From a virus (taxonomy: Duplodnaviria > Caudoviricetes), in IMG/VR virus record IMGVR_UViG_3300016263_001470, positions 1-42,367 of that record: a stretch of 42,367 nucleotides of DNA. The stretch is one strand, 5' to 3'. Positions 1,110 through 21,942 of this stretch are shown here, in pieces. The notes under the pieces were generated by a model. That model was not told the DNA's origin. It did not search any database and saw nothing but the letters and a program-made list of their open reading frames with translations. A program made the translations under genes and the position numbers. Numbering within the stretch: the first letter of the stretch is position 1; each line of letters starts with the position of its first letter.

Positions 1110-1306
1110 TTGCGTTTCTTTCGCTTCACGGTCTTGCGGGGCAGGTAGTTATTGACCGGCGAACCGTGGGGCGCGGTCTTCCATTTGCCAAAGTTCGAGG
1201 TTGACCCGTAGGTAAACTTCTCCTCGCGGGTAACCGTCGGATACATATCAAACGTCAATTCAAATGCCCAGTTAAATAACCTGAAGGCAAAAGTAAATGC
1301 TCTCAT
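1106..1306 (-). CDS. Hypothetical protein
   Basis: 66 aa ORF with ATGA overlaps on both sides. Confidence 0.55.
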   Translation of the reverse strand: MRAFTFAFRLFNWAFELTFDMYPTVTREEKFTYGSTSNFGKWKTAPHGSPVNNYLPRKTVKRKKRK

Positions 1307-1896
1307 GCTGATTCCTCCGTTATGACTTTGTCAAAACCGGGTTCCTCGGCATGCCAGGTTTCTGTCTGCACCCGCAACCAGCTGGGTTTGCCTTCCGCTT
1401 TGACAAAACTCGATTCTTTCCAGAGAACATTGTTGTTGGGAACACAGACATACCGGCCGTTGGTAAGCGCCATAAAGTTATGGGATTTGGTTTGACTTGG
1501 CTCCAGGGAGTAGGAGTCTTCATAGGGCTCCGCCGTAAACACGTAATGACCCGCAACCCAATGTTGCCGCTTGGCAATCCAAACCTCGACATCGAGCTCT
1601 CGGAGGTAATCATACTGGATGGGTTGAAAGTTGTATCCGAAACAATCCCAGCGCTGGGCATCGCCAATCCCCCATTCAATATCAAAACCCATACGGTCGT
1701 GGCAAAGGGCGTGGAGTGGGAGCCCGCGGTAAACGGCTCCCCCCTTGAGCATAACAGTACAACCCCAGGCGCGGTGCGGAACGGAAAGGAGTCCAAACCA
1801 AACGGCTTCTTCCCACCCCCTTACTTCATTCCCGCTAACGATTGATCGGTCAACCCAGCAATATTGATGCTGGGGCAAGTTTGCTGCGTGTGTCAT
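1303..1896 (-). CDS. Hypothetical phage protein (Trp-rich)
   Basis: 197 aa, coupled to the next gene, promoter-like motif upstream. Confidence 0.7.
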   Translation of the reverse strand: MTHAANLPQHQYCWVDRSIVSGNEVRGWEEAVWFGLLSVPHRAWGCTVMLKGGAVYRGLPLHALCHDRMGFDIEWGIGDAQRWDCFGYNFQPIQYDYLRELDVEVWIAKRQHWVAGHYVFTAEPYEDSYSLEPSQTKSHNFMALTNGRYVCVPNNNVLWKESSFVKAEGKPSWLRVQTETWHAEEPGFDKVITEESA

Positions 1897-4178: not shown

Positions 4179-4387
4179 TTTCCGATGGGGCATTGTTCGT
4201 GTGGTAGCCATTGTTTTCCTTTGCCGCACCCACATTTAAGGCACTTGCCGTAACCGAGTCTAGCATTTTCTTCCCAAAATTCACAACCCCGGCAAATCTC
4301 CATCCGCCTGAGATAAGTCTCGCCCGATACCTTCGGGAACCCGGAGCGGGCCCACTGATGCATGGAGTAGGAGAATTTTCGGATCAT
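4160..4387 (-). CDS. Small Cys-rich protein (CxxC...CxxCGC...CPxxKW)
   Basis: 75 aa from ATG 4387 (ATGA overlap with the oxidase stop); 6 Cys. Confidence 0.75.
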   Translation of the reverse strand: MIRKFSYSMHQWARSGFPKVSGETYLRRMEICRGCEFWEENARLGYGKCLKCGCGKGKQWLPHEQCPIGKWGKET

Positions 4388-4830
4388 GGCTTGAAGATTG
4401 GTTTTCCCAGGTCCTTGTTGACCATGTTGTGGGCGTCGATCGCCCACTTTTCATAGGCTTGCCGGGAGGATAAATCAGGCGGTAATTTTTTGACCACTTC
4501 ACGCCAATGAGAGGAACATTTACCACACGGGATCCAACGGTGGAAAATCTTAAGCCAACGAAGTTCTGTTTTTGCATCCTTGATTTTGTTATGCGTTCTG
4601 TCATGCAATATTTTCCACAGTCTTGGACCCCATTGTGCCGGGTCTTTTCTAAATTTTGCCACTGGATTTGGATCCGAGTATTTTTCAACAAGTTTTCTGG
4701 CCACGTCCTCCCCCATCACAATGTATTTTCCCTGTATTCTTCCGCTGGACATAACCTCTTCAACGTATCCTTCCGGGCGGAAAAACGAGTTTTCCTTTAC
4801 GGCCCGTATTAAAAAACGCACCTCGTTCAC
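4384..4830 (-). CDS. Erv1/Alr family FAD-linked sulfhydryl oxidase
   Basis: WGPRLWKILH...IPCGKCSSHW...WAIDAHNMVNKDLGKP gives the full Erv signature; GTG 4830 overlaps the upstream stop. Confidence 0.88.
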   Translation of the reverse strand: MNEVRFLIRAVKENSFFRPEGYVEEVMSSGRIQGKYIVMGEDVARKLVEKYSDPNPVAKFRKDPAQWGPRLWKILHDRTHNKIKDAKTELRWLKIFHRWIPCGKCSSHWREVVKKLPPDLSSRQAYEKWAIDAHNMVNKDLGKPIFKP

Positions 4831-5225
4831 GGAGCTTCTATCAGGCAACAAGTAAAAGCACAGCTAACGCCGCCTCCCCATGATCCGGCTTCACATTTCA
4901 TTGTGGTTCCTTCGCCCACGTAAGCGGTGAAGGAAAAATTATGGGCCCCGTAGCACGGGCCGGTTCCAGGCTGGTTTGCCGGGGAGAAAAAACTTCCTCC
5001 CTGCCAGGTGATGGTGGCCTGGTCATCCACCGCGCCATTACATTCATAAAGCCCTGTTTTCGGGGCTTCTTCGGATACAGCAGTCAAAAAATCAACACAT
5101 GGTCCACCTTGATCGTCTCCGGGACCGCTTCCAAAAATATCTCCGGAGAAACAATTGCAATCTTCACAGGCTGCGGTGACTGCATCACAATCACATTCAC
5201 AATCTGATTTGATAAAAGCCATCAT
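4827..5225 (-). CDS. Cys-rich protein (13 Cys in 132 aa)
   Basis: DCECDC...CEDCNC...TCC; overlaps both neighbouring genes by 4 nt. Confidence 0.75.
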   Translation of the reverse strand: MMAFIKSDCECDCDAVTAACEDCNCFSGDIFGSGPGDDQGGPCVDFLTAVSEEAPKTGLYECNGAVDDQATITWQGGSFFSPANQPGTGPCYGAHNFSFTAYVGEGTTMKCEAGSWGGGVSCAFTCCLIEAP

Positions 5226-14405: not shown

Positions 14406-14448
14406 AGACTGAACTTAAATTGACAACTGTCAAGCCATTATGCAGATT
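14406..14448. promoter_or_regulatory. Divergent promoter pair sharing the palindrome TTGACA-ac-TGTCAA
   Basis: Palindrome 14420-14433; candidate -10 boxes CAGATT (+, 14443) and CAGTCT (-, 14411). Confidence 0.5.
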
Positions 14449-18795: not shown

Positions 18796-19989
18796 ATGAG
18801 TGAAGCAGCTACCGCAACCCCCACCGCAGAATTAGGTCTTGCCGATGCCTTAGACGCGGGTCTTGATGCAATTGACCGTAGTCCGGCAGAAGTTCCCGTC
18901 CAGGCAACTCCCGAGCCGGTAAAAGCCCCGGAAGCAACCAAACCAGTAGCGGCTGAAAAAACTAATGCGGTTTCCAACAACAATCCGCTGGACGTTTTGA
19001 CCAAACGACTTACTGGACAGGATGAAGTCAAAGCCGAATCGACTTCTTCCGAAGATTTAGACATCAAAACCCCCGAGAATCTCAAACCGGAAGCCCAAAC
19101 TGCCTGGGCTAGGTTAACCAAGGATTTGCGGGAAGCCAGAGCCAAGCTCAAAGAATTAGAGACCAAAACCGCCGAATCCGTTCCCAATTCTGTTGAGCAA
19201 ATCGATCTGAAAGCTCAATTGGAAGCACTTAAAACTGAGCGCGACAACTACGAGCAGGAGTTGCGTTTTTCCCGTCTGGAAGCTACTAAAGAGTATAAAA
19301 TGGCTGTAACCGAGCCATTGCAGACCATCCAGAATGAGGTCGCCTCGATTGCGAAGACTTATGAAATGGACCCAACAAAGATTTACGCCGCCATGGTTGA
19401 GCCAGATGCCATGAAGCGACGAGCCCTCCTGAAGGAAGCCACGGCCAGCTTTGATCCTGTTGATGCCCTGGCTGTCCGCCAAAAAGGAGAGGATTTGCAG
19501 AAAATCTTTGAGCGTCGGGAATTGCTGACCAAGGATGTACAGACTGTTCTTCAGATGATTGAGACAGAGGAAAAACAGGAGATGGAGCAGTTTCAGAAGC
19601 AAGCCGAACAGGAGTTGGCCGAGGCTTATAAATCCGAATGGGAAAACATGCAGAAGGAAAACCCCCTTCTACGTCCCATCGAGGACAATGAAGCTTGGAA
19701 CAATACCTTAAAGGGCATTGAGCAACAGGCTCTTAGCATTGAGAATACCGAGCTTGATCCTCGTTCCAAAGCCAGGCTAACATTTAATGCCGCCGCTCTT
19801 CCTGTGGTAATGCAGGTATTTCAAGATTATGTTTCCAAGACCCAGTCCAGAATCAGCGAGCTTGAAAAGACAGCCAAGGAACTTCGGTCTACGCTACCTT
19901 CCGCCGGGGCGGACAGCAGCGGGGCTCCCGAGATTGCTTCTGATCTTGGCTTTTTGGAAGCCCTTGAACGCGGTATGGGCAAAAAATAA
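18796..19989 (+). CDS. Capsid scaffolding protein
   Basis: Acidic, coiled-coil, directly upstream of the capsid gene; AAGGA RBS. Confidence 0.7.
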   Translation: MSEAATATPTAELGLADALDAGLDAIDRSPAEVPVQATPEPVKAPEATKPVAAEKTNAVSNNNPLDVLTKRLTGQDEVKAESTSSEDLDIKTPENLKPEAQTAWARLTKDLREARAKLKELETKTAESVPNSVEQIDLKAQLEALKTERDNYEQELRFSRLEATKEYKMAVTEPLQTIQNEVASIAKTYEMDPTKIYAAMVEPDAMKRRALLKEATASFDPVDALAVRQKGEDLQKIFERRELLTKDVQTVLQMIETEEKQEMEQFQKQAEQELAEAYKSEWENMQKENPLLRPIEDNEAWNNTLKGIEQQALSIENTELDPRSKARLTFNAAALPVVMQVFQDYVSKTQSRISELEKTAKELRSTLPSAGADSSGAPEIASDLGFLEALERGMGKK

Positions 19990-20002
19990 TTGTTAAAAGG
20001 TA

Positions 20003-20030
20003 TTGACACGTTCCACCCGGTTGATACTTT
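20003..20030 (+). promoter_or_regulatory. Capsid promoter
   Basis: TTGACA-16-TACTTT with TG extension. Confidence 0.6.
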
Positions 20031-20036
20031 TAACTC

Positions 20037-20230
20037 GTTCGGTGTAGGTATAAAGACTGAGACCCTTGCTGAACACTGACCTATAAAGATTGAGATGGTC
20101 AAAAATTCGGGCATTAAAAGCTCTGGGATGCCGCCAGGGAATAGTTTTGAATGTGGTAAGGGCGAATAGCTCCGTGCGGAGTTAACGCTACTTCCGCAAA
20201 TCATAACATCCCTTGCGAGAGCGGGGGATG
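20037..20230 (+). ncRNA. Structured 5' leader RNA of the capsid gene
   Basis: Five hairpins with G-U pairs, three with related loops, the last with a GAGA tetraloop. Confidence 0.6.
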
Positions 20231-20253
20231 GATGAAAGGATAAGTTAAACAAA

Positions 20254-21636
20254 ATGGCTACTACGTACTCCATCGAGCAGTTGCTCGTGAAGGAAGCTGG
20301 CCGTATCGGACCGGAGATCTATCGCCGGACGATCGACACTTCCGCTTGGCTCAAACTGACCAAGCAAGAACAGTTCCCCGAGGAAATGGGCGATGTGATC
20401 AGCTCGATGACTTTCGAGCGGTTCTATCCGTCCCGCGTTCTCGCCGGTGCTGGCAATACTAACGGTTACGCCGAAAATGAAATCACTGCTGACGCTGGCT
20501 CGGGCTGGCGCAAGCTGGGTTCCAACCCGGTTGACCAAACCTACGAAGACTTTAACGCCTACACCCAGACGATCTCTGGCGGTTCCACCCCTCCGGTGGC
20601 CTCCACGTCGACTGCCGGTAACGTTCTGCCCGCCACCCTCAACGGGGTGACTTTCGGCCAGAAACTTCGTCAGTACAGCCTGGAATGGGCCTCCATCGAG
20701 TCCCCTGACGTTGCCCTCGAAGACTTGCGCTTCGCGGTCAAGCGTCGTGAGCAGCTGTCCAACATCATGGACGTGCTGACTGAGTCGACATCGCTCGTGT
20801 GGCAGGATCGTTATCGCAATCAGTACACCTCCTCCGTCGCCGCCGAGGGCAACCTGGTTTACCCCAGCACCTCCTCGATCGTGGCTTCCACGAGCGCGAG
20901 CTCTGGTGACGCGAAGGTGATCTATGACGCGGTTACCACCGGAGTCGGCACTGCCGCTTCCGGCGCAATCACCGCGGCTAACCTGCCCAACAGCCAGCTG
21001 ACCCAGGGCATCCTCAAGCGGCTCTACATGAAGTTGATCCGTGATGGTGCCGGCACTAACGCCATGGGCCGTGAAAACGGCGCCCCGGTGTTCATGCTGA
21101 TCTGCGGTGCTGAAACCAGCGAGTCCCTCATCCGGCTCAATGCGGACATCCGTCAGGATTTCCGTTATGCGAAGCCCAATGAGTTGCTCACTCCGCTCGG
21201 CATCGAGCGCAGCTACGGCGGGTTCTACCACGCCATCGATCCGTATCCTCCGCGGTTCCGCGTGTACGATACCACGAATGACAAGCTCATCCGTACGTAT
21301 CCGTTCAAAAAGGAAACCACGACCAAGGGTACTGCGTACAACATCAACAGCGAGTACGAGACCGCAGCCTACGAACTGAGCTACATCTACCATCAGGATG
21401 TGTTCCGTTCCGTGGTTCCGGGTCCGGTCAACACCGCCAACAAAATGAGCTTCAACCCCCAGAATTACCGGGGTGAGTTCAAATGGGTCAACATCCTTGA
21501 CCGTCAGACCAATCCGGATGGTAACGTGGGTTACTTCCGTGGCGTTCTGGCCAACGGTGCCCGTGCGATCTTCCCGCAGTATGGCTATGCCATCCTGCAC
21601 AAGCGCGCGGCGATCAGCCTCGACTACGTTAGCTAA
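20254..21636 (+). CDS. Major capsid protein
   Basis: 460 aa after scaffold; strong RBS (AAAGGA); strongly biased codons. Confidence 0.85.
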   Translation: MATTYSIEQLLVKEAGRIGPEIYRRTIDTSAWLKLTKQEQFPEEMGDVISSMTFERFYPSRVLAGAGNTNGYAENEITADAGSGWRKLGSNPVDQTYEDFNAYTQTISGGSTPPVASTSTAGNVLPATLNGVTFGQKLRQYSLEWASIESPDVALEDLRFAVKRREQLSNIMDVLTESTSLVWQDRYRNQYTSSVAAEGNLVYPSTSSIVASTSASSGDAKVIYDAVTTGVGTAASGAITAANLPNSQLTQGILKRLYMKLIRDGAGTNAMGRENGAPVFMLICGAETSESLIRLNADIRQDFRYAKPNELLTPLGIERSYGGFYHAIDPYPPRFRVYDTTNDKLIRTYPFKKETTTKGTAYNINSEYETAAYELSYIYHQDVFRSVVPGPVNTANKMSFNPQNYRGEFKWVNILDRQTNPDGNVGYFRGVLANGARAIFPQYGYAILHKRAAISLDYVS

Positions 21637-21658: not shown

Positions 21659-21904
21659 ATGGCTTTCCCTCTTCAAGTTGCGACGCAGGATCACGTTCTC
21701 GCAGCCCAGGTTCGTAACGTCCTCGCCAATGGCGGGACGTGGACGGATGTGGTTGTCCTGACCGCTGCCACTGGCACGGCCAGCAACACCATCGCTGACG
21801 TGGGTGCAGCCTTCAACCAGACGACCTTGAACAACAACTTCAAGTCGCTCGCGGCGAAGGTCAACGAATTGATCGTGCTGGTCAATAACGTTAACGCTGC
21901 CTAA
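21659..21904 (+). CDS. Head fibre/decoration protein
   Basis: TIADV..NQTTLNNNFKSLAAKVNELI; AAAGGAG RBS; follows the capsid gene. Confidence 0.6.
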   Translation: MAFPLQVATQDHVLAAQVRNVLANGGTWTDVVVLTAATGTASNTIADVGAAFNQTTLNNNFKSLAAKVNELIVLVNNVNAA

Positions 21905-21911
21905 TTGAATC

Positions 21912-21942
21912 GATCCCCCGGGGGCAATTCCCCCGGGGGATC
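21912..21942 (+). terminator. GC-rich hairpin, probable terminator or mRNA stabiliser
   Basis: GATCCCCCGGGGG-CAATT-CCCCCGGGGGATC, 13 perfect bp; weak U tract. Confidence 0.65.

What the first reader, a model, noticed from the sequence alone, without database searches (positions are those of the whole stretch)
20037..20253. Capsid leader with three hairpins displaying a repeated loop motif, and a possible switch
Seen: the only long leader among the promoters found; it starts at the predicted +1 (20037). TATAAAGACTGAGA (20049) and TATAAAGATTGAGA (20082) match 13/14 and sit on unrelated stems (GGT/ACC within 20037-20074; TGACC/GGTCA). A third hairpin is GGCAT-TAAAAGCTCTGGG-ATGCC. Next come a long hairpin (20152-20198) and a 10-bp GAGA hairpin (20207-20230) beside the RBS. 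Its CATCCC strand could instead pair with GGGAATAGTTTTGA (20137-20150). Inference: conserved loops on variable stems suggest repeated protein-binding or T-loop-like (UGAGA) modules controlling capsid synthesis.
Basis: partly seen in the sequence, partly recalled or inferred. Interest (0 to 1): 0.7.

Follow-up and report, generated by a model that had tools for sequence, protein, structure and literature searches.

The report
T-loop and pseudoknot capsid leader RNA
The 217 bases in front of this uncultured aquatic phage's capsid gene are a conserved folded RNA with no Rfam match, carrying two hairpins with matching loops and a predicted pseudoknot; it likely protects the capsid message and likely binds a phage protein at both loops, but it is not predicted to be an on/off switch.

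Summary
In 18 close relatives, 17 of 56 pairs change on both sides. The twin 15-nt loops sit on interchangeable stems. 'Hairpin 3' is not a free hairpin. It is the predicted loop-back pairing of a pseudoknot onto a covarying hairpin, CUCUGG/CCAGGG. That core sits only before this capsid gene (59 of 70 viral hits, 11 cut off). The proposed CAUCCC/GGGA switch fails: probability at most 0.007 in 18 of 18, and no effect on Shine-Dalgarno access in 39 of 39. Promoter, leader, capsid gene and a strong downstream hairpin bound one message. Function is untested; my best reading is a stabilising leader whose loops dock a clade-specific phage protein (0.4). No Rfam match. This scan reported the same leader family four times before on other DNA. 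As far as those short notes show, the T-loop evidence and the paralogous pseudoknot are new here.

The parts
18796..19989 (+). Upstream gene, likely head scaffold (397 aa); context only
   Evidence: Position before the capsid gene; no Pfam or PHROG hit; weak Atlas lead to a cluster in which 13% of members carry PF09306. Identity inferred.
20003..20030 (+). Predicted sigma70-type promoter: TTGACA, 16 nt, TGn-TACTTT
   Evidence: TTGACA is found in 27 of 27 twin-type leaders. The spacer is unusually conserved in the close clade.
20037..20074 (+). P1, 5'-terminal hairpin at the predicted +1; 15-nt loop 20049-20063 with UGAGA at 20058-20062
   Evidence: 4 of 11 pairs change on both sides; first pair lies 5-7 nt after the -10 box in 24 of 27 leaders.
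20077..20101 (+). P2, second hairpin; 15-nt loop 20082-20096 with UGAGA at 20091-20095
   Evidence: 3 of 5 pairs change on both sides; loop statistics.
20108..20139 (+). Core: hairpin S2 (20121-20126 with 20134-20139) whose 7-nt loop is predicted to pair back with 20110-20113 (and C20108 with G20133, G20109 bulged); A-rich linker 20114-20120
   Evidence: S2: 5 of 6 pairs change on both sides, 100% paired in 17 distinct cores; the four loop-back pairs never vary. The same pattern covaries in a paralogous unit of a sister clade. One copy in the window.
20144..20207 (+). P4 (20144-20150 with 20201-20207) closing the long hairpin P5 (20152-20198)
   Evidence: P4: 6 pairs never vary; P5: 10 of 16 pairs change on both sides.
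20207..20235 (+). P6 hairpin with GNRA-type loop (20207-20230) and a possible extension (20201-20204 with 20232-20235) that competes with P4; close clade only
   Evidence: 7 pairs, 5 vary on one side, none on both; ensemble figures.
20234..20240 (+). Extended Shine-Dalgarno GAAAGGA
   Evidence: 7 pairs, -9.4 kcal/mol with the 16S 3' tail read from 8 of 8 loci of the Luteolibacter bin's family; GAAAGG or AAGGAG in 39 of 40 leaders.
20254..21636 (+). Major capsid protein (460 aa); nearest solved fold is the phage N4 capsid
   Evidence: AlphaFold model, mean pLDDT 62.9; Foldseek top hit 9e99, E 3.8e-9, 52 matches at E <= 0.001, listed rows are capsids. No Pfam or PHROG hit.
21659..21904 (+). Small 81-aa gene, possibly a head decoration protein
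   Evidence: Position; weak Atlas lead to a head-fibre cluster (0.90, PF11133 on 40% of members). Inferred.
21912..21942 (+). Strong GC-rich hairpin, likely terminator or 3' protector of the capsid message
   Evidence: -31.2 kcal/mol; a hairpin of -23.6 or stronger follows the capsid gene in 38 of 38 loci with enough DNA (41 examined, 3 cut); control inside the gene, mean -16.4, strongest -19.1, n = 40.

Best explanation
The region is a conserved folded RNA leader that likely begins at the first base of a dedicated capsid message, likely shields it from decay, and likely displays two predicted T-loop modules as docking sites for a clade-specific phage protein that would tune capsid output. Shown: the helices, their conservation, the tie to the capsid gene, and the joint change of the two loops. 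Inferred: (1) transcription starts at 20037, so P1 caps the 5' end, and the hairpin at 21912-21942 caps the 3' end; (2) P1 and P2 are 0-2 nt apart and probably stack end to end, so their loops face away from each other and act as two independent copies of one module; (3) each loop folds a T-loop at positions 10-14 (U.A closure here, G.G in the sister clade); (4) both loops change together because one outside partner reads both, most simply a phage protein such as free scaffold or capsid subunit; (5) the pseudoknot is an older, slower-changing module whose partner, if any, is more likely host machinery or the RNA itself; (6) the effect is on message lifetime or ribosome loading, not on opening a hidden Shine-Dalgarno.
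For: Covariation over the whole leader: 98.7% of 1005 cells paired, 17 pairs with double changes against 8.3 +/- 1.8 in shuffles. Loop copies differ by 1.6-1.7 nt within a leader but 4.4-5.2 nt between clades, while the closing pairs of copy 1 are inverted between clades, which a plain copying event does not explain well. Positions 10-14 read YGNRA in 8 and GGAAG in 8 of 16 distinct loops found without specifying that half; both are named as T-loop sequences in bioRxiv 10.1101/2022.12.26.521914. P1 length runs from about 11 to 18 pairs with a 0-2 nt linker, and L209 has a single copy. The core lies only before this capsid gene and stays with it when other genes replace the scaffold upstream. 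RNA contigs from three studies begin at +9, +16 and +54 and run into the capsid gene (weak hint).
Against: No partner is identified and no binding is shown. The clade change of the loops is one evolutionary event. The loops lie 170-200 nt from the Shine-Dalgarno, and no predicted fold links them to it. T-loops mostly contact RNA, not protein. The loop lacks the context of FMN/cobalamin T-loops (closing pair plus two bulged bases). The loop-back pairs do not covary within this core; their support comes from a paralogous unit and from distant clades aligned by eye, which my covariance model did not recover. With 21 coding bases added, S2 falls to probability 0.02 in the window and exceeds 0.5 in only 18 of 39 leaders; the program cannot score the pseudoknot. 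14 of the 41 leaders with this core have no twin-type loop, so the loops are not needed family-wide.
Confidence: 0.4

Rival explanations
1. Self-contained fold with no protein partner: the T-loops dock on receptors inside the RNA (the A-rich core linker or the 5' half of a loop) and the compact domain passively stabilises the message or helps ribosome loading.
For: The core linker fits the YNANA receptor consensus in 15 of 16 distinct cores, and loop positions 3-6 fit YANA in 16 of 16 loops (consensus). T-loops usually make RNA-RNA contacts. L209 has a C at the same place in its loop and its linker (one sequence).
Against: The linker keeps the same sequence in the clade that has no twin loops, so it is just as well an ordinary A-minor strand of the pseudoknot. 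Stem and linker lengths vary too much for rigid docking. It does not explain why both loops changed together.
Confidence: 0.25
2. A put-like nascent RNA: the two hairpins at +1 to +65 bind RNA polymerase and suppress pausing or termination in the structural operon.
For: Two adjacent stem-loops of about 65 nt directly after the promoter, as in the 73-nt V-shaped HK022 putRNA (PMC9378689, passages). About 17 kb of same-strand genes follow.
Against: A strong hairpin is kept just after the capsid gene in every clade. Here the loops are conserved and the stems vary, whereas put needs stem-internal features. Sister clades carry a different 5' domain.
Confidence: 0.12
3. A small local switch: UCAUAAC (20201-20207) pairs either with GUUUUGA (P4) or with the bases just before and inside the Shine-Dalgarno, and a ligand tips the balance. 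This is what survives of the first reader's switch.
For: The P4 state lies within 2.9 kcal/mol of the best fold in 17 of 18 close relatives; the extension index is 0.5 or more in 15 of 18 while P4 never varies. The extension covers the first two bases of GAAAGGA.
Against: Found in the close clade only. Among 14 relatives with AACC, 6 break the AACC/GGUU register without compensation. Shine-Dalgarno access moves by 0.15 or less between the core-formed and core-open states in 39 of 39 leaders.
Confidence: 0.12
4. A tRNA- or metabolite-sensing RNA: each 15-nt loop folds two intermeshed T-loop-like pentamers (positions 3-7 and 10-14) into a flat platform for the tRNA elbow, or the near-invariant core binds a small molecule.
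For: Interdigitated T-loops bind the tRNA elbow in the L1 stalk, RNase P and T-boxes (PMC4810234, passages). A4 and G11, the second residues of the two pentamers, are invariant in 15 of 15 loops. 16 core positions are invariant over 17 cores.
Against: No Rfam match, so no T-box or known riboswitch. No expression platform. A universal ligand gives no reason for clade-specific joint change. I know no example of both T-loops inside one hairpin loop (own knowledge).
Confidence: 0.07
5. The repeats are DNA operator sites, or the RNA works in trans or in the virion like a packaging RNA.
For: The repeats lie 32-36 bp apart, about three turns.
Against: The flanks covary as stems and use G.U pairs that hold only on the + strand. 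There is no terminator before the start codon, and RNA contigs join leader and gene.
Confidence: 0.04

Closest known systems
ANTAR dual-hairpin targets (EutV, NasR, AmiR; PMC3369931: abstract and section 7 read)
   Same: Two neighbouring hairpins with conserved loops on exchangeable stems, read by one dimeric protein.
   Different: ANTAR loops have 6 nt (A1, G4), a 5-12 nt linker and an overlapping terminator. Here the loops have 15 nt, the linker 0-2 nt, and the leader has no terminator.
T-loop and T-loop-receptor modules of FMN and cobalamin riboswitches (bioRxiv 10.1101/2022.12.26.521914: passages, introduction part 1 and section 5 read)
   Same: YGNRA pentamer in a terminal loop; the GGAAG variant; YNANA- and UANA-like strings nearby.
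   Different: There the T-loop opens a 7-nt loop. Here it lies at the 3' side of a 15-nt loop, and no ligand or receptor is known.
HK022 putRNA (PMC9378689: passages read)
   Same: Two stem-loops of about 70 nt at the start of a phage transcript, acting in cis.
   Different: put serves early genes and uses stem-internal features and a triplex. Here a late gene, conserved loops, a following pseudoknot and a retained downstream hairpin.
Phage T4/RB69 gene 32 translational operator (PMC535899: abstract read; PMC10690425 passage)
   Same: Pseudoknot in a phage mRNA leader; the precedent for feedback by the gene's own product.
   Different: The target is an ssDNA-binding protein gene. Here a capsid gene, a hairpin loop that pairs back upstream, and two more hairpins before the ribosome site.
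GP20-a/GP20-b and other candidate leaders of phage head genes (PMC10690425: passages and section 9 read)
   Same: Computationally found structured leaders in front of phage head genes, function untested.
   Different: No Rfam match here. Whether a piece of this leader is among that paper's 8,495 IMG/VR candidates could not be checked: its large files were not readable.

Membership tests
T-loop motif | Pentamer of a known T-loop sequence class | tested here: met
   16 of 16 distinct loops read YGNRA (8) or GGAAG (8) at positions 10-14; classes.
T-loop motif | Non-canonical pair between positions 1 and 5 | tested here: inconclusive
   Positions 10 and 14 change together (U/A 8, G/G 8), but in one event; position 14 can also pair with loop position 1 (15 of 15).
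T-loop motif | FMN/cobalamin context: T-loop at the 5' side of a 7-nt loop, two bulged bases | tested here: not met
   15-nt loop, pentamer at the 3' side, one base after it.
T-loop motif | U-turn and intercalation gap in three dimensions | not testable with these tools
   Needs probing or a structure.
ANTAR target RNA | Two hairpins with conserved loops | tested here: met
ANTAR target RNA | Six-base loops with A1 and G4, linker of 5-12 nt | tested here: not met
   15-nt loops, linker 0-2 nt.
ANTAR target RNA | Second hairpin overlaps a terminator | tested here: not met
   The only terminator-like call in the leader is S2 itself, at chance level (10 found, 7.8 expected); RNA contigs cross the leader.
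HK022 put | Two stem-loops of about 70 nt right after a promoter | tested here: met
   +1 to +65.
HK022 put | Stem I triplex and the conserved base between the stems | not tested
   No alignment to put was made; stems vary freely here.
HK022 put | Binds RNA polymerase and suppresses termination | not testable with these tools
   Needs transcription assays.
T4 gene 32 operator | Pseudoknot upstream of the ribosome site | tested here: inconclusive
   Pairing invariant here, covarying in the paralogous unit; not probed.
T4 gene 32 operator | Downstream gene is the ssDNA-binding repressor | tested here: not met
   The gene is a capsid protein.
T-box or known riboswitch | Match to the Rfam family model | tested here: not met
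   0 hits in the window at gathering score, 0 in 19950-20300 at E <= 10, 0 in 20 distant loci.
T-box or known riboswitch | Expression platform that changes ribosome access or termination | tested here: not met
   Access differs by 0.15 or less in 39 of 39 leaders; a prediction only.
GP20-a / GP20-b | Rfam match and position before a GP20 gene | tested here: not met
   No Rfam hit; the gene is the capsid gene.
CsrA-bound leader | GGA in the hairpin loops and CsrA in the host | tested here: not met
   GGA in the sister clade only; CsrA in 0 of 4 verrucomicrobial bins, present in the planctomycete bin (bins incomplete).

The most novel reading that the evidence does not exclude
Each 15-nt loop is a compact double T-loop folded inside one hairpin loop, a form I do not know from solved RNAs. 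The phage uses two such platforms and a loop-back pseudoknot to grip tRNA or the ribosome and so couples capsid synthesis to the host's translation capacity, without any protein regulator.
Probability: 0.07. Interest if true: 0.85.

Novelty: new variant of a known kind. Interest (0 to 1): 0.55.

Why it matters
How dsDNA phages set the very high output of capsid protein after transcription is poorly mapped outside a few models (own knowledge). This family offers a natural experiment: one conserved pseudoknot core with exchangeable 5' domains (twin loops, one loop, or a second pseudoknot), and loops that switch between two T-loop classes together. That gives precise swap and rescue tests (U10/A14 against G10/G14; partners from either clade). 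A positive result would add a new RNA-protein pair or a new T-loop architecture, and a portable stabiliser for bacterial messages. Interest is held down because the function is untested, no switch is predicted, and the scan has met the same family four times.

Tried and rejected
Loop pairing with the AGUUUU strand after the core: fits the variation in the close clade but fails the swap control there (own -3.1 and -2.6 against swapped -4.2 kcal/mol); the sister clade goes the other way (own -3.4 and -4.3 against -2.7 and -1.7); median p about 0.08 in both. Upstream ORF: the AUG at 20095 is ACG in 8 of 18 relatives. Antisense ORF 19827-20273: only 3 of 14 close leaders have an antisense ORF of 80 aa or more there, with different ends. 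Block to RNase J: none over the cut-off in 61 Verrucomicrobiota genomes or in 5 bins; holds only if the host guess is right. CsrA. Copies elsewhere: one core in the window; 3 further one-mismatch loop hits, of which I looked at 2 and saw no stem; 8 of 39 viral loop hits lie outside the family, none before this capsid gene. No relative among 50,697 GenBank phage records. The covariance model of the core found 1 of 16 test loci, one that it was built from. RNA runs held only 0.06 of the words and belong to relatives; all are contigs, no DNA run was laid, so uncovered parts and depths were not used. The stem count for the distant core type crashed and was not repeated. The -10 boxes of the tandem-pseudoknot clade were mis-registered and are not used. 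Paper searches (listings only unless cited as read) showed no description of this leader; Weinberg 2017 (PMC5737381, passages) has no mention of capsid in its main text. In PMC10690425, 4 of the 6 held supplements were searched without a hit; 2 held and 3 further files, which probably include the alignments, could not be read.

Full report
Setting. The window is a 42,367-base piece of a tailed phage. A terminase, a likely scaffold gene (18796-19989) and a 460-aa gene (20254-21636) lie on the + strand. The 460-aa protein has no Pfam or PHROG hit, but its model (mean pLDDT 62.9) matches solved capsids, best that of phage N4 (E 3.8e-9). No GenBank phage record matches it. Relatives occur in 8 genome bins, 5 of them verrucomicrobial. 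That is a weak pointer to the host, because binning can misplace phage contigs.

The observation. Both 14-mers and the named hairpins are present. Such a repeat arises in 5 of 2000 shuffles of the leader, and the leader folds better than 200 of 200 shuffles. Rfam has no match in the window, in the leader at E up to 10, or in 20 distant loci.

Structure from relatives. Twenty loci with capsids 76-96% identical keep the whole leader. On 18 distinct leaders, a 56-pair model is 98.7% paired (1005 cells) with 17 pairs changed on both sides, against 8.3 +/- 1.8 in shuffles and at most 5 when partners are slid. The model was largely derived from this alignment, so the slide control is generous. P1, P2 and P5 carry the double changes. 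P4, S2 and the loop-back pairs never vary in this clade. P6 varies on one side only.

The twin loops. The unit is a 15-nt loop. Over 38 distinct contexts the first three closing pairs hold in 38, 38 and 37 cases, as C-G or G-C. In the sister clade (capsids 50-56% identical) both loops read UAYAAAAAYGGAAGY instead of UAUAAAGAYUGARAY. Copies differ by 1.6-1.7 nt within a leader and by 4.4-5.2 nt between clades (20 and 10 distinct leaders). I first read the loss of UGAGA as a failure of the T-loop idea. A paper then showed that GGAAG is itself a known rRNA T-loop and that YGNRA is the riboswitch consensus (bioRxiv 10.1101/2022.12.26.521914). Found without specifying their 3' half, 16 of 16 distinct loops have one of the two at positions 10-14. 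Of the 15 other ways to set the ends of that pentamer, 2 give a listed T-loop. This is one event, and the loop context differs from that of FMN and cobalamin T-loops. P1 is about 11 to 18 pairs long, the P1-P2 linker is 0-2 nt, and one distant phage (L209) has a single copy. I infer that each loop is an independent module.

The core. The real hairpin is CUCUGG/CCAGGG: over 17 distinct cores it is fully paired and 5 of 6 pairs change on both sides, while its loop and the upstream GGCA never vary. The fifth pair of 'hairpin 3' holds in 3 of 17. A sister clade replaces the twin hairpins with a second unit of the same plan, and there the loop-back pairing covaries: 250 of 250 cells paired, U-A 15 against C-G 10 at one pair, G-C 18 against U-A 7 at another (25 sequences). 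More distant clades show GAGC with GCUC in a hairpin loop (34 distinct sequences from 53 loci; 33 loci matched neither pattern). That link is by eye and by pattern; my covariance model did not find it. The pseudoknot in the window is therefore well motivated but not directly shown. ViennaRNA cannot score it, and S2 is unstable in the ensemble once coding bases are added (0.02 in the window; above 0.5 in 18 of 39).

A cis element of one message. Of 108 viral matches to the core pattern, 70 form the stem; 59 of these precede this capsid gene, 11 are cut off, and none precedes another gene; none of the 38 without a stem precedes it. In metagenome contigs 71 of 71 form the stem: 64 precede the capsid gene, 6 are cut, and 1 turns into unrelated sequence at the start codon. 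These sets overlap in source samples. Leader types fall into clean clades on a capsid tree of 88 rows (quick tree, SH-aLRT only; twin-loop clade 26 rows, support 99); linkage alone explains that. The scaffold gene abuts the promoter in 14 of 14 close leaders but in 1 of 11 and 3 of 14 in the two sister clades, where other genes lie between, so the capsid gene relies on its own promoter. The first helix starts 5-7 nt after the -10 box in 24 of 27 twin-type leaders. A hairpin of -23.6 to -31.2 kcal/mol follows the capsid gene, or the small gene after it, in 38 of 38 loci with enough DNA, and one of -19.7 or stronger in 45 of 45 more distant ones (47 examined, 2 cut); U tails are often weak. Laid on relative L002, RNA contigs from three studies begin at +9, +16 and +54 with no loose end and run into the capsid gene, and the longest would end near the hairpin if its unaligned tail keeps the same length. 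Contigs cannot fix ends or strand, so this is a weak hint.

The switch. The proposed pairing has probability at most 0.007 in 18 of 18 leaders. The Shine-Dalgarno is GAAAGGA, with 7 pairs to the 16S tail. Its predicted access changes by 0.15 or less between core-formed and core-open states in 39 of 39 leaders (L134 and L209 left out). A smaller competition remains in the close clade: UCAUAAC can close P4 or extend P6 over the first two Shine-Dalgarno bases, at near-equal energy, but it lacks compensation and is absent from the sister clades.

Mechanism. Best reading (0.4): a leader that caps and stabilises a dedicated capsid message and shows two T-loop-type modules to one clade-specific phage protein, acting on lifetime or ribosome loading. 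The joint change of both loops on inverted closing pairs is the main argument; ANTAR targets are the working model (PMC3369931), though membership fails. Rivals: a self-contained fold (0.25), a put-like RNA (0.12), the local P4/P6 switch (0.12), a tRNA or metabolite sensor (0.07), DNA sites or a trans RNA (0.04). No partner has been identified.

Novelty. No Rfam family and no description in the paper searches, with the gap that the alignments of PMC10690425 could not be read. Structured leaders of phage head genes are a known, mostly untested kind, so this is a new variant. The scan reported this same leader four times on other genomes. Those notes are not independent evidence, and I saw only their short summaries.

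Noticed in passing
window 21912-21942; L004-L018, L053-L123 after the capsid gene: The hairpin after the capsid gene keeps the loop UUC(U/A)AU, like a shortened tRNA T-arm, in most loci of three clades; the window's own loop differs.
   Followed up: partly
L053, L056, L105; L072, L090; L059, L068, L094; L067, L093, L096, just upstream of the -35 box: Variable genes are inserted between scaffold and capsid promoter, and the same upstream sequence is shared by phages of different capsid clades, ending at the -35 box: a likely recombination hot spot.
   Followed up: partly
window 20009-20024: The promoter spacer is nearly invariant in the close clade, more than a spacer needs; possibly a site for a late regulator.
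   Followed up: no
L074-L105, L135, L137, about 165-125 nt before the capsid start: A sister clade has two loop-back pseudoknot units in tandem; the 5' one is strongly supported by covariation.
   Followed up: yes
L203-L206, L210, capsid leader: A distant clade from genome bins has a different leader with two copies of a GGUUGCUCUAGCC ... UAGUUCUA unit.
   Followed up: no
L170-L187, capsid leader: Another clade has two candidate loop-back units with a UAAC linker, read by eye only.
   Followed up: no
L021, L022, L025, L027, L031, L032, L036, L037, L048: Many contigs end inside the leader, probably because related phages share it almost unchanged and assemblies break there.
   Followed up: no
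window 14420-14433: TTGACAACTGTCAA is a perfect palindrome over a -35-like box between the divergent replication and terminase genes.
   Followed up: no
window 4384-4851 (-) and 1303-1896 (-): An Erv1/Alr-family sulfhydryl oxidase gene (E 2e-15) and a gene matching a PHROG annotated as ferredoxin.
   Followed up: no
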